The notes below the pieces were generated by a model. That model had not been told where the DNA came from and searched no databases. It saw only the letters and a list, made by a program, of their open reading frames with translations. A DNA stretch of 64,000 bases from positions 8,945,850-9,009,849 of the forward strand of contig NC_090417.1 in NCBI RefSeq assembly GCF_036365525.1, in the 5' to 3' direction. Each line of letters starts with the position of its first letter. Position 1 is the first letter of the stretch. Shown piece by piece: positions 42,593 through 48,500 of the stretch. The DNA is from Heterodontus francisci. Taxonomy: Eukaryota. Made by a program: the position numbers and the translations under genes.

Positions 42593-45500
42593 CTATGGAA
42601 TAAAAGTGAGACAAGAACGTCTGATTAACACCGCAGGAGAAAGAAAACCCTCAGCATGTAAGTGTAATCTTGACTTTTCTTGGAAAGTGCTGGCTCAGAC
42701 GCATACACACCAAAAGCTACTTTTAATTCAACTAACATATGGATTGGAATGCAGTCCAGACAGAAAGGATGAAGCTCTGTTCTCTCTGAGGAGGATTGAA
42801 TTCTGCAAGGTGCCAAGTTCAAATCCAGTCTCGACAGAGAGAGAAAAAAATCTTTCTGATGGGAAAACTGCGCTTTAGTATGTTCGACACTGTCCTTTTG
42901 CCTTCGGGGCCTGAGATCATGCCTGACAGCACAGGGCAAGCTGATTCCCTCCACTGCCCTGACTCAGGAGCCCCATCACAGGTGGGGCTCGCTCCACCGA
43001 CCTGACTACTCTGTAAAACTGTGCAATTCTAATACAGCATTATTTATTGCTCAGAAAGGCACGTATTCGCTGTGAAAGTCAAATTCAGGAACGCACGTTT
43101 GTGTACTCATGCCGATAAGCTCCACTTTGTGATCCTGGGTTCTGGCACGGTGAATGGCAGGAACCTAGGAATAAAGATTGGAGATCAGCAGCATAAGAAC
43201 AGAAACCCCGCATCCTTTAAAAATATATTCTTTTTAATTAAGGTGAAGGTCATCTGAAAATACAATGGGACAGATGGTGACTTTGTGCACCAGCGTAAAA
43301 TGGGTGACAGCGAACCAGCATCTCTCCTAAAATTTGTTTCCAATGAGTTCAGATGTGCAAGGCCGGCTGCTCATTTGCGAACACCTGTTTTTACACTCAT
43401 AAAAAAACAAGATTTATCCCAGGATGCTTTATAAGTATATAAAAATAGAGGAAAGAGTCTGTTTTCTTAAGGGACAGTTGTAGCTATGTCCAATAATGGT
43501 TTATATTTATGCACAAATTAGCTGACCTTCTGTGGCATTGTTCACTGGTAGACTGTGGCCTGGTGGAATGACTTGTGATGTTCAGCTGCTAACCTGATCT
43601 GTCCCCTTAAAGATACTGCTCAGGTACTCCCTGTAAGGAAGTTGTCTAAGTAGGTACTGAAAACAAACATATGTTAATTCCTGTTAGCAAACGTACTCAG
43701 CAGATTGTCATATGCTGTAAATTATTGGCACTAGGTTAATTTGCAAACTTCTCTTTCCATGATAAATTGGCCTACTTGTGTGAAATTATTTTTTTACACA
43801 CCTTGACACTTTGAAATGCTGCTGTCTGAGGTGTCAGGCATCCTCTCAAAATTTACGCATGAAATTTCTCTATTCCCACTTGTACTGAATTTAATTCAAT
43901 AATCAACGCTAGAGAGTAAAGTTTGCAAGGCTTAACCCCCACAGTAGAAAACTTTACTCAAAAATGGCATGAATCAGGGAAATGAGGTCAGTGTGTCCAA
44001 TTCACTGTCCTGTTGATTTTCTGATGATTATATTCAATTGCAGGCAAATTGGGAGGGTGATGAATTGGTTGCATTGTTTCTATGCCCGATTCTCTGAACC
44101 GTGCCCCCAGTGATTGAGTGCAAAATTTACTTCTATTGCAAATCTACATTCTGCTGTTCAATGACTCTGAGTCTCGTATGCTTGACACTGCCCATCAGCA
44201 TTGATAGTGCCTCACTCAGGACACACTAACAGGTGAAACCAGTAGGGTGTGGATCGAGTGTCTGAGATCTCTATGAAACACAGCTTGGACGTTTATATTG
44301 ATTCCCACTTAAACACAAGTCTCCCCATTCATCTGTGACAATGCGAGATCACCTGTGGTATCTCCATACCCCCAATAATGTGGGTAAATCTGGTGCAGCA
44401 TAGTTGGAAAGTTAGCATACAACACTATGGAATGGAAGCTGGTACTTCTGATGCTCCTAGATGACAAAGTATACTTTAGTTGTCACTCTTCAAGCTGTAC
44501 AGAGATTTTCCTTCCTTTGATTTCAATACTCATAACTTAGAAACTTTTTTTAGCTACATAAAAATTGGAGTGGGGAGTGACTGTTCCATTTAACCAGGAT
44601 ACTTCTGTTAGCCATGGATACCAAATGTCACAGTGTGGGCTTGGAACCCGGGCAGGGTTTCCTTCACTTACCATGCTGCTATACTGCCGAGTATATTTAC
44701 AAAACAGTCAATCCTGAAATTAACTTCTGTTGTGAACACCACAATGTAAGAATGTCAATATGTTTTTACATTGTTTTTGTTTTTAATGGAGACAAACTAT
44801 AATATGGAACTAGAATATGGAAAGAATTAGTTGAAATCAAGTTCTTGAAAAAGCCTATCTTTTCCCTGCTATGTTCTCAAAAGCCCTTCTCAAAACTCCA
44901 GACAAGAAAAGAAATTTGAAACGCAGAGCATGCCATGAGGACTGTTTACATTAGGTTCAGGTAATCAATTAATAGTCTGGTGTGAAAAGGGTATGAGGCC
45001 TCTCATCTCTGGCAAACTATTTGAAAGAAGTAGGTGGTTTTTTCTGAAAAAAGAGACATGCTGTTGAAGCTTTTCATCTTGCACTCATCAGGTTCAGACG
45101 CATGAATGCCAAATATACAAAATTATGATGGGCGTTGATAGGTTAGATAGGAAGAAACTTTTTCCCTTAGCAGAGGGGTCAATAACCAGGGGGCATAGAT
45201 TTAAGGTAAGGGGCAGGAGGTTTAGAGGGGATTTGAGGAAAAAGTTTTCACCCAGATGGTGGCTGGAATCTGGAACGCACTGCCTGAAGGGGTGGTAGAG
45301 GCACGAACCCTCACAACATTTAAGAAGTATTTAGATGAGCACTTGAAACATCACAGCATACAAGGCTACAGGCCAAGTGGTGGAAAATGGGATAAGAATA
45401 GTTAGGTGCTTGATGGTCGGCACAGACACGACGGGCCGAAGGGCTTGTTTCTGTGCTGTATAACTCTATTGACTCTAAAGGGAGGAACAATTTATACTGC

Positions 45501-48500
45501 ATGACAAAAAGGACGCTGATTGGTTGAGGTGTTGCTATGGAGAATGCACGAGGGAACTATTGTCCCCATGCTTTTGTTTAATTCAAAAAAGGTGCAACGC
45601 CTGGACATGTTCCTTTTGCCAGCAAAGGACAGGTTCCTGTTTATGAATATATGTAGCTTCTAGCAAGCATAAGTGAGCCACATTGCGAGCCTGACTGATA
45701 ATCTTAAATTGGTTGTAAGTCTAATTCTTAGCACACTCAGGATTGCTCAGTAAGTGCTATCCAATCACAGAAATACATCTAATGTGCGACAATGTCTTCT
45801 GAGTTTTGCAAGTACGGGCTGGTTGAGTATGGTTAGTCCTGTGCCTATTGCGAACAGCTGAATTAATGTGCTGTTTGATGCAATCCTCCAGTCGTTGGGA
45901 CGTATGGCCAACATCACACTGGCCATCTTCCAGTCATTGGGACATTTGGCCTACATTACACCAGTACTGGAAAAACAATATAGCTAGAAGCTACATATAT
46001 TCACACACAGGGACCTGTCCTCTGCAGGCAAAAGGAACATGTGTACAGGCATTGTGCCTTTTTTGAATTAAACAAAAGTGTGAGGGGCAATAGTTCCCTA
46101 GTGCATCCTCCATGGCAACACCTCGTCCAATCAGAGTCGACTTGCCAACCAATCAGCACCCTTTTCTCATACAGTATAAATTGTTGTTCCCTTTGAAATT
46201 TGGCATTCTTGCATCCGTCCTGATGAGTGCAAGATGAAAAGCTTTGACAGCATGTCTATTTTTTCAGCAATACTCAGGTTCTGTTATTTCAAGCGACTAA
46301 ATGGGTGGCTGTAAAACATGATGCAGGAAGAGAACCAAAAACCAAAAGGGTATAATACAGCTGCCATGTTTATTTAATTCGAAAAAGGAAAGAAAGCTGC
46401 ATTCGAGACCATGGGGTGTGAACAGACTTAAGAAGATTTATCATTAAATCTATTCATAGTAAATTTTGGATACAGGGCACTATTCTATACAGTTGGTTTG
46501 GCTGTTTCAGATTAATGTTTTGTCAATGATAAATGAAGTGAATAATGAAACATATTACAGTCTCTAGTTGTACAAATCTATTGAAAGGATAAGGAAGGAA
46601 TTCTCCAACACACGGTCTTATTTTACATCTTTCAAACTGTGGACAGTGTGAAGCACAATTTTAATTAGTAACTGTCCAAAGATGCTATCTTGGAAAACCA
46701 ATACTTGGTGATAAGTGTAGGCCACATTGTTGGAAGGACTACATCCCTGTTTCCCCATACCTGGATCTGGATATGGATATATGCAACACTGGATGTGCTT
46801 AAAAATGTTGAGGACTGGGCACTTTATGTTCAAGAATACAAAGTGCTCAGAAAAGATAGGGAAGGAAAAATGGGAGGTGGGGTGGAAGTAAGGATGGTCA
46901 CGATACTGGGGTAATTCTATAGACCTCGAACTAGTGAGAGAGAGATAGAGAAACAAATCTGTAGGGAAATGAGAGATGTGCAGAACTACAGAGTGGTGAT
47001 ATTGGGGGATTTTAATTCCCAAATATTGTTTAGAATAATGTTCGGGTAAATGGAAAGAAGGTGGAGGAATTTCTGACCTGTGTTCAGGATAACGTCCTTG
47101 ACCAGTATGTTCTTGGCCCAACTCGAAAGGAGGCACTGCTGTAATTGCTGCTGGGGAATGAGACAGGCCAAGTGGATCAAGTGTCTGTGGGAAACACTTG
47201 GGTAAGAGTGATCACTGTATCATAAGGTTGAGATTAGCAATGAAGAGAGCAAGTAACAATCTAAAGTAGAACTTCTAAACTGGAAGAGAGCTAACTTCAC
47301 TGGGATGAGAAGGGATCTAGCCAGGGGAAAATGGAACCAAAGAATGACAGGAAAAACTGTAACGGAGCAATGGGTAATCTTTAAGGAGGAGATGTTTCAG
47401 GTACAGGCTAGGTACATTGCAACAAGGGAAAAAAAGGTAAGGCAACCAAAGCCAGGGCTCCTTGGATGACGAGGGAGATAATGATCAAACAAAAAAGATG
47501 GTGTATGATGCATGTCAGGTGAATTCTTCAAGCAAGAATCAGGCCAAATACAATAAGTTGAGGAGGAAATGAAGAGTAAAATAAGACTGGCAAAGAGAAA
47601 ATATGAAAACAGAATAGCAGTTAACATAAAAGGGAACCCAAAAAACGTCTACCAGCAAGTAAATAGTAAGCTGGTAGTAAGAGATGGGTTGGATCCTCTT
47701 CGGGACACAGAGGGTGAAATATGCTTAGCGGTGCAAGATAAGGCGAGAATACTTAATAAGTACTTTGTATAGCGTTTACTCAGGAGGAGGATTCTGACAA
47801 ATTATCGGGCGAGGAGGAGAGGGTAGATGTAATGGATGAAGTGAAAATTGATTGGCAGGATGTACTGGAAAGGCTGGCAATGCGAGAGTGGATAAGTCAT
47901 CTGGTCCGGATGGCTTGCATCCCAGGTTGCTAAAGGGAGTGGGGGTGGAGATAACAGACGGGCTTGCCATTATCTTCCAATCTTCCCTAGAGATGGGGGA
48001 GGTGCCAGAGGATTGTTGAGTGGCAAATGAGACCCTCTTATTCAAGAAAAGGTCGAAGAACAGTCCTAGTAACTACAGGCGGGTCAGATTAGCATCGGTG
48101 GTGTGTAAGGTTTCAAAAACAATCATCAGAGAAAAAAATCAGCAAGCACTTGGAGCGGTTTGAGTTTATCCAGAGAGCATGGATTTGTAAAAGGCAGATC
48201 ATGCTTGACTAATCTGATCGATTTTTTTGATGAAAAAAGAGAAAGTTGATGAAGGGAAAGCAATGGATGTTGTCTTTATGGATTTTAAGAAACTATTTGA
48301 CAAAGTACCACATAAAAAGCTGGTTACCAAAACTGAGGCTCGTGGAAGAGGAGGGTCATTGTCAGTTTGGTTTAAAAAATGGCTTTCTGACAGAAAACAG
48401 CAAGTCCTAGTAAATGGCTGTTTCTCAGACTGGAGGATGATAGTGGTGTTTTTCAAGGGTCAGTGCTGGGACCACTGCATTTTTGGATGCACATAAATGA

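What the first reader, a model, noticed from the sequence alone, without database searches (positions are those of the whole stretch)
45048..46290. Penelope-like element with outward-facing inverted pseudo-LTRs, each with CCAAT, TATA and a hammerhead ribozyme motif, in GCK intron 9
Seen: two ~280-bp inverted copies (45048-45664, interrupted by a CR1; 45983-46265) flank a degenerate ORF with GIY-YIG C-terminal features ([30 protein letters not shown]). Each arm has CCAAT (46127, 46149), TATAAA (46175) and then CUGAUGA-stem II-GAAA-AGCUU-H with a palindromic AAGCUU stem III. Established: Penelope-like elements often have inverted pLTRs and carry minimal hammerheads whose palindromic stem III allows cleavage as dimers. 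Inference: the P.LC.QK..L.L ending resembles my recollection of the Naiad/Perere-type clade. Copy A lies in the GCK sense direction, so GCK pre-mRNA would contain a ribozyme motif and could fold a long dsRNA hairpin. Both copies show a G-U closing pair in stem II, plausibly CpG decay, so activity may be weak.
Basis: partly seen in the sequence, partly recalled or inferred. Interest (0 to 1): 0.7.

Follow-up and report, generated by a model that had tools for sequence, protein, structure and literature searches.

The report
Decayed Penelope insertion with pseudoknot hammerhead
This is a worn, back-to-back insertion of an abundant Penelope-type jumping gene in a glucokinase intron; the family's predicted self-cutting RNA is braced by a knot kept by matched base changes, but the copy that the host gene transcribes is damaged and likely cannot cut.

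Summary
The motifs are real, but the locus is ordinary. It is one insertion of two 5'-truncated, head-to-head copies (about 45038-46299) of a high-copy Penelope-like family in GCK intron 9. That layout occurs in 35 of 85 other loci examined. The family has RT followed by a C-terminal GIY-YIG domain and no cysteine linker, so it is Penelope/Poseidon-type, not Naiad, and shows no selenocysteine signal. It lies 30-35 nt behind TATA, and the predicted cut is 6 nt before the ORF's ATG. Both window copies are decayed. The GCK-sense copy has lost the stem I pairs next to the core, has a CR1 fragment between TATA and ribozyme, and is predicted to be buried in the hairpin, so cleavage of GCK pre-mRNA is unlikely. 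The build is known from microbial hammerheads; I found no description of it for Penelope elements, but one key paper was unavailable. This scan had already noted the pseudoknot on other DNA.

The parts
42593..49514 (-). GCK intron that hosts the insertion (intron 9 by recalled exon numbering)
   Evidence: Exon ending ...YKLHP with GT donor at 49514; AG acceptor at 42593 before the last coding exon
45029..45037 (+). Left copy of a probable decayed 9-bp target-site duplication
   Evidence: 7 of 9 identical to 46300-46308; chance about 0.02; 9 of 28 outward pairs show exact flanking repeats of 9-17 bp
45038..45971 (-). Copy A: 5'-truncated Penelope-like copy in GCK sense, no tail, interrupted by CR1; has a local ~40-bp duplication at its 5' end
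45583..45971 (-). Broken C-terminal part of the GIY-YIG endonuclease (in-frame stops), ending at the family's TGA
   Evidence: 101.7 bits against profile A1 positions 732-839
45491..45523 (-). Copy A promoter remnants: one CCAAT (45519-45523) and TATAAA (45491-45496)
45116..45476 (+). CR1-type LINE 3' fragment inserted between copy A's TATA and its ribozyme (family name from recalled CR1 features)
   Evidence: Absent from other copies, itself a repeat
45060..45105 (-). Copy A hammerhead, damaged: pseudoknot 6 of 7 pairs, G10.1-U11.1, no stem I pair next to the core; predicted cut between 45066 and 45065; ATG at 45059
45983..46299 (+). Copy B: shorter 5'-truncated copy, antisense to GCK, with the 3' tail
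46127..46180 (+). Copy B promoter motifs: CCAAT 46127, CCAAT 46149, TATAAA 46175
   Evidence: the same order in related families
46207..46213 (+). Pseudoknot 5' strand (UCUUGCA), complementary to loop II (UGCAAGA, 46228-46234)
   Evidence: 7 of 7 pairs in copy B; covariation
46215..46250 (+). Copy B hammerhead: stem I 3 pairs then a mismatch, core 46220-46226, G10.1-U11.1, GAAA 46236-46239, palindrome AAGCUU 46239-46244, UUU triplet, predicted cut after 46245
46252..46299 (+). First 16 codons of the element's ORF (ATG 6 nt after the predicted cut), including the optional tail
   Evidence: In longer copies this sequence runs on into the ORF N-terminus and matches the N-termini of P0006, P0023, P0039
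46300..46308 (+). Right copy of the probable target-site duplication

Best explanation
This is one decayed insertion of two 5'-truncated, head-to-head copies of a high-copy Penelope-like retrotransposon, whose family carries a hammerhead motif with a one-pair stem II and a covarying 7-pair pseudoknot that likely braces a self-cleaving fold, while the copy in GCK sense is predicted to be inactive. How it works: (shown) each arm is the element's 3' end, in the order endonuclease C-terminus, stop, CCAAT, TATA, pseudoknot strand, hammerhead, ATG and first codons; (inferred) in a tandem parent this arm is the promoter and 5' end of the next unit, transcription would start at about the pseudoknot strand, and cleavage, likely needing a second molecule or the element's protein to close the AAGCUU stem III, would remove the capped leader 6 nt before the ATG; (inferred) the insertion arose when both nicked target strands primed reverse transcription and the two incomplete cDNAs were joined at their 5' ends; (shown) later CpG decay, point changes and a CR1 insertion damaged both arms; (predicted) in GCK pre-mRNA the arms form a long imperfect hairpin that is a passive by-product.
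For: Family abundance: 3,438 first-look candidates, 40 scored at 88-91% identity; 1,322 exact intact-core matches versus 0 for the reversed control. Layout: outward pairs in 9 of 28, 12 of 28 and 14 of 29 loci picked three ways, inward in 1 of 85; described as the typical arrangement, with a tail at one end, in PMC8557442 and PMC3846280. Domain order RT then EN and no CX2-5CxxC linker in 20 of 20 parsed relatives. Pseudoknot: six different loop sequences or registers each matched by their own upstream strand, 37 of 42 Watson-Crick pairs, best of 720 permutations also when every combination may choose its offset; on a sequence-only MAFFT alignment 4 of 7 pairs change on both sides and 90.9% of cells pair. 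Fifth stem I pair in exact intact copies: U-A 586, U-G 31, C-G 16, C-A 6. TATA lies 30-35 nt before the pseudoknot strand in 7 of 9 rows. A one-pair stem II with pseudoknot is fast in microbial hammerheads (over 1.2 per min, PMC3088659; 16 per min, PMC11300833). Damage: copy A 0 stem I pairs next to the core; only 9 of 80 sampled copies keep all features.
Against: No cleavage was measured. Rfam has no hit, even on intact copies. One related family has U in place of C3 in most copies seen, which questions whether cleavage is needed. In the PAc element the ribozyme was not needed for insertion in vitro and no reads ended at its cut site (PMC11167929). The transcription start is inferred from TATA spacing only: 5' ends of 29 intact-core copies were scattered, with 3 of 29 starting 12-23 nt before the core. 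The six families are related and come from few samples, so permutation and shuffle figures are not true probabilities. L127 breaks the last pseudoknot pair and L126 was out of register in the MAFFT alignment. The window's target duplication is only 7 of 9. Clade placement rests on motifs, not a tree with reference elements.
Confidence: 0.85

Rival explanations
1. Copy A is a functional intronic ribozyme that cuts GCK pre-mRNA and tunes glucokinase expression, like domesticated intronic hammerheads.
For: It lies in GCK sense, and its core nucleotides, palindrome and C17 are intact. Active intronic hammerheads exist (C10orf118, RECK; PMC3088659).
Against: No stem I pair next to the core, G10.1-U11.1 and a mismatch in the pseudoknot. 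No second same-strand copy in the 64-kb window to act as dimer partner. Copy B's complement is transcribed first and is predicted to pair across the motif. The changes are of the kind seen in other decaying copies.
Confidence: 0.04
2. The ribozyme is dead but the hairpin matters: the arms form a long double-stranded RNA in GCK pre-mRNA that is A-to-I edited or alters splicing or retention of the last intron.
For: 237 predicted pairs between arms, 87.5% identity. It is the only inverted repeat of 80 bp or more between 42,000 and 64,000 at E 1e-10.
Against: The same layout is in about 4 of 10 family loci, so it needs no host function. It lies over 2.4 kb from either splice site. No sequencing run holds this locus, so neither editing nor conservation could be seen.
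Confidence: 0.08
3. The loop II pairing is not a brace for catalysis but an alternative fold or protein-binding element at the transcript's 5' end that keeps the ribozyme off or marks the RNA for the element's protein.
For: The non-knotted minimum-energy folds pair the upstream strand with the core and loop and do not form a hammerhead. A related family keeps the pairing but changes C3. PAc cleavage needs protein.
Against: The pairing covers exactly the 7-nt loop closed by a conserved G10.1-C11.1 pair, the geometry of the solved pseudoknot hammerhead. The folding program cannot model pseudoknots.
Confidence: 0.15

Closest known systems
EN+ Penelope-like elements of the Penelope/Poseidon group, including Perere (Arkhipova et al. 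2013, PMC3846280; Craig et al. 2021, PMC8557442; passages and Fig. S2 text read)
   Same: RT then C-terminal GIY-YIG with CC..HH, no cysteine linker, pLTR holding TATA and the first codons, adjacent inverted 5'-truncated copy, tail at one end, target duplication.
   Different: The endonuclease ends in P-x-L-C-[RK]-Q-K where nearly all reference elements in Fig. S2 have an Asn motif, so this subgroup is not among those references. No tree was possible.
Minimal type I hammerheads of metazoan PLEs (Cervera and de la Pena 2014, PMC4209133; parts 1-2 of 4 read)
   Same: Type I, in the pLTR, short stem I, palindromic stem III, conserved G10.1-C11.1, predicted dimer.
   Different: Those have a long stem II (7-8 bp) with a bulged base, and a review says they usually lack tertiary contacts (PMC6155905). 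Here stem II is 1 bp and a 7-bp pseudoknot is present. More distant relatives in my loci do carry the long-stem form.
Pseudoknot hammerheads (Perreault et al. 2011, PMC3088659, passages; Zhan et al. 2024, PMC11300833, PDB 8YDC, part 1 of 6 and passages)
   Same: One G10.1-C11.1 pair whose loop forms a 6-7-bp pseudoknot in place of helix II.
   Different: The partner strand there is the loop of an extra stem-loop, or lies in a type II build; here it is the free 5' leader of a type I ribozyme with a 2-bp palindromic stem III, in an animal retrotransposon. Zhan et al. do not mention Penelope or retrotransposons (0 hits).
Poseidon PAc of Anolis (Frangieh et al. 2024, PMC11167929; parts 1-2 of 4 read)
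   Same: Ribozyme at the pLTR-ORF junction; two 3' end points that define an optional tail.
   Different: In PAc the cut is 26 nt after the start codon; here it is predicted 6 nt before it.

Membership tests
EN+ Penelope-like element | Single ORF with telomerase-like RT and GIY-YIG endonuclease | tested here: met
   Longer genome copies encode RT motifs, thumb and EN in one ORF. Relatives hit RVT_1; P0006 hits GIY-YIG at E 1.4e-4, just under the cutoff. The window peptide matches their profile.
EN+ Penelope-like element | pLTR with inverted 5'-truncated partner and optional tail | tested here: met
Naiad | Endonuclease N-terminal to RT | tested here: not met
   RT precedes EN in own copies and in 20 of 20 parsed relatives
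Naiad | No canonical hammerhead; CX2-5CxxC finger | tested here: not met
   Hammerhead present in over 1,300 copies; finger absent
Naiad selenoproteins | Family-wide in-frame UGA at conserved cysteines | tested here: not met
   At most 3 of 69-100 copies have TGA at any cysteine column; recurrent TGA is at arginine (CpG) columns. SECIS was not searched.
Neptune / Nematis | Cys-rich finger in the RT-EN linker | tested here: not met
   0 of 20 parsed relatives; compared with Fig. S2 text
Penelope/Poseidon group | C-terminal EN with CCHH and no linker finger | tested here: met
Penelope/Poseidon group (or Perere subclade) | Placement in an RT phylogeny with reference elements | not testable with these tools
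   Reference sequences exist only in a paper supplement and could not be brought into the tree tools
Hammerhead ribozyme (family motif) | Core CUGAnGA / GAAA / UH with stems I-III | tested here: met
Hammerhead ribozyme (copy A, GCK sense) | Stem I paired next to the core and G10.1-C11.1 | tested here: not met
   0 adjacent pairs, G-U
Hammerhead ribozyme (copy B) | Stem I paired next to the core and G10.1-C11.1 | tested here: inconclusive
   3 pairs then a mismatch, G-U, UUU triplet
Hammerhead ribozyme | Self-cleavage | not testable with these tools
   Needs a bench assay
Rfam hammerhead models | Covariance-model hit | tested here: not met
   No hammerhead hit at E 10 on the window or E 5 on 10 loci, including long-stem relatives, so the test is insensitive to these minimal forms
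Pseudoknot hammerhead | One-pair stem II whose loop forms a 6-7-bp helix | tested here: met
Pseudoknot hammerhead (Zhan type) | Partner strand is the loop of an extra helix IV; stable stem III | tested here: inconclusive
   No such helix was evident by eye and none was tested; stem III is a 2-bp palindrome

The most novel reading that the evidence does not exclude
A widespread subgroup of animal Penelope elements places a fast, pseudoknot-braced but dimer- or protein-gated hammerhead at the capped 5' end of its own mRNA, so that cleavage removes the cap 3-6 nt before the start codon. It would be an off-switch or copy-number sensor for translation rather than a tool for cutting the transposition template.
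Probability: 0.3. Interest if true: 0.7.

Novelty: new variant of a known kind. Interest (0 to 1): 0.38.

Why it matters
The role of Penelope hammerheads is open: they cut slowly in vitro and were not needed for insertion in the one purified system. A subgroup that joins a brace known from the fastest hammerheads to a stem III that needs a partner, with the cut just ahead of the start codon, gives a clean test of whether these ribozymes are fast and gated, and of what the cut does. Hundreds of natural intact copies exist for that test. The GCK insertion itself is a decayed passenger and matters little unless editing or splicing effects are shown.

Tried and rejected
Rfam scans found no hammerhead; not taken as evidence against, since long-stem relatives were missed too. 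Pfam on the window peptide gave no GIY-YIG hit. A genome search for other one-pair families with a different loop gave 3 matches versus 1 control, chance level. No relatives in viral contigs. The first swap control with G-U allowed and two mutated copies was uninformative; it was redone with an intact copy and Watson-Crick counts, dropping L138, L141 and the second own subfamily because they repeat a loop already present. 5' ends of 29 intact-core copies showed no peak at the inferred start. No public run holds this locus (best share 0.22, repeat-derived), so editing could not be tested, and the search for an empty orthologous site found only short repeat matches. Naiad, Neptune, Nematis and selenoprotein readings were rejected on motifs. 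Lunse, Weinberg and Breaker 2017 (RNA Biol 14:1499), on PLE hammerhead variants that cleave as dimers, is not held; it may already show this pseudoknot. Literature searches; none listed a paper on a pseudoknotted PLE hammerhead by title or abstract start, and the passages I read did not describe one. Supplements of the 2026 bioRxiv retrozyme preprint and the supplementary figures of PMC4209133 were not seen and may bear on novelty.
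Full report
Observation. The window lies in a 6.0-Gb genome with shark-like repeats (my inference). GCK is on the minus strand; the host intron runs from a GT at 49514 to an AG at 42593. 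The arms are 87.5% identical over 264 aligned bases. The minus-strand peptide matches the end of a profile built from 22 RT+EN relatives at 101.7 bits.

Anatomy. The locus is not pLTR-ORF-pLTR. Copy A (minus, about 45971 to 45038) is a 5'-truncated copy that starts inside the endonuclease. Copy B (plus, 45983-46299) is a shorter truncated copy that starts in the last ~28 codons. They meet head to head. Copy B carries the 3' tail and copy A does not. A 9-bp direct repeat with 2 mismatches flanks the pair (chance about 0.02); 9 of 28 outward pairs examined show exact flanking repeats of 9-17 bp, so such pairs are single insertion events. A CR1-type fragment (name from recalled features) later landed between copy A's TATA and its ribozyme.

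Family. The arm has thousands of candidates in the genome (3,438 first-look, 40 scored at 88-91%), and most copies near the window's subfamily differ 4-10% from the column majority. Outward pairs were seen within 1.5 kb in 35 of 85 loci, an inward pair in 1. This is the arrangement described as typical for Penelope elements (PMC8557442 passages; PMC3846280 passages). Walking upstream through longer copies gave RT motifs, thumb, linker and EN in that order and the ORF start: the sequence after the ribozyme is the first 16 codons, homologous to the N-termini of full-length relatives.

Clade. Naiads have an N-terminal EN and lack canonical hammerheads, so this is not a Naiad. None of 20 parsed relatives (of 22 given) has the CX2-5CxxC linker finger of Neptune, Nematis and Naiad (reference alignment). 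That leaves the Penelope/Poseidon group, which includes Perere. No tree with reference elements could be built. No family-wide UGA sits at cysteine columns.

Ribozyme. The family motif is a type I hammerhead with a 5-bp stem I, a single G10.1-C11.1 pair closing a 7-nt loop, and a palindromic AAGCUU stem III. The exact intact core occurs 1,322 times against 0 for the control. Most of these belong to a sister subfamily: fully intact motifs number 586 with a U-A outer stem I pair, 31 with U-G, 16 with the window's C-G, and 6 unpaired. The loop is complementary to 7 nt just upstream of stem I. To test this I fetched 80 metagenome and 17 genome-collection loci by protein similarity and read the DNA at ORF ends. 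Five further loop sequences appeared, each matched by its own upstream strand: 37 of 42 Watson-Crick pairs, 41 of 42 with G-U, the best of 720 permutations, also when all combinations may choose their offset. On a sequence-only alignment of 11 rows, 4 of 7 pairs change on both sides. These rows are related and come from few samples, so the figures show covariation, not a probability. More distant relatives (30-43% best-segment identity) carry the ordinary long stem II. TATA lies 30-35 nt before the pseudoknot strand in 7 of 9 rows, CCAAT boxes recur, and an ATG follows the predicted cut by 3-6 nt in 5 of 9 rows.

Mechanism. Inferred: transcription from a tandem parent starts at about the pseudoknot strand, so the ribozyme is the capped leader and cleavage would remove the cap just before the ATG. 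A one-pair stem II with a pseudoknot supports fast cleavage in microbial hammerheads, while the 2-bp palindromic stem III points to dimer or protein help. Against: copy 5' ends did not map a start site, one related family mostly has U at position 3, and the PAc ribozyme was dispensable for insertion in vitro.

The two window copies. Both have U at 11.1, as do 42 of 80 sampled copies; with C-to-T at 17 and G-to-A at 1.1 this is the pattern of CpG decay. Copy B keeps the pseudoknot but has a stem I mismatch and a UUU triplet, and is antisense to GCK. Copy A, in GCK sense, has no stem I pair next to the core and one pseudoknot mismatch. No other copy of the family lies in the window. In GCK pre-mRNA copy B's complement comes first, and the fold pairs 237 bases between the arms. 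Cleavage of GCK pre-mRNA is therefore unlikely. The hairpin is the only inverted repeat of 80 bp or more in the GCK part of the window and could be edited, but no run holds this locus.

Novelty. The insertion is an ordinary member of a known kind. The ribozyme build combines two known designs; I found no description of it for Penelope elements in six searches, and a review says these ribozymes usually lack tertiary contacts. Lunse et al. 2017 could not be read. I saw the pairing before looking at earlier notes; those notes report the same build in this and other genomes and pointed me to Zhan et al. 2024 and to the cut lying before the start codon, both of which I checked. They are not independent support. 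Papers seen: PMC8557442 (passages, supplement parts 54-55), PMC4209133 (parts 1-2 of 4), PMC11167929 (parts 1-2 of 4), PMC11300833 (part 1 of 6, passages), bioRxiv 10.64898/2026.07.22.740005 (abstract, results part 1 of 2), PMC3846280, PMC3088659, PMC6155905, PMC6765202 and PMC10085705 (passages).

Verdict. Observation confirmed, interpretation partly supported. Interest 0.38, carried by the family's ribozyme and not by the GCK site.

Noticed in passing
L127:296-340, L124:152-198, L146:1319-1365: Three related elements carry a histone 3'-UTR-like stem-loop right after the predicted ribozyme cut (Rfam RF00032, 27-33 bits, just under the gathering score 34), followed in L124 and L127 by an AAAAGAG run and then the ATG. 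A similar hairpin lies inside the ORF about 150 nt downstream in L129, L140 and L150, where it is coding. It was not found in the genome's own family.
   Followed up: partly
P0002-P0112 C-termini; window 45583-45620 (-): All 20 parsed relatives end in P-x-L-C-[RK]-Q-K, with Cys where nearly all reference PLE endonucleases have the conserved Asn. It may mark an undescribed subgroup.
   Followed up: partly
L133, L140-L143, L151, L162, L172, L175, L178, L181, L194: One related family mostly has U instead of C at core position 3 while keeping the pseudoknot.
   Followed up: no
window 46246-46256 and family copies: The 3' strand of stem I can also form a small hairpin with the start-codon region (GACA-nnn-UGUC) in both own subfamilies; not seen in the other families.
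   Followed up: no
L043, L050, L052, L056, L057, L059 and others: A second, larger subfamily has about 50 extra bases in the CCAAT region and a U-A outer stem I pair.
   Followed up: partly
L204-L220: Penelope-like ORFs, several with hammerheads, sit in bacterial genome bins, most in one bin; they are likely eukaryotic contigs.
   Followed up: no
window 45900-45971: A ~40-bp tandem duplication and a 10-bp palindrome (45961-45970) lie at the junction of the two copies.
   Followed up: no
window about 46830-47500 and beyond; 19700-20300; 12717-13144: A second CR1-type ORF2 fragment in the same intron (recalled motifs), a G-rich tandem repeat, and the window's only N run.
   Followed up: no
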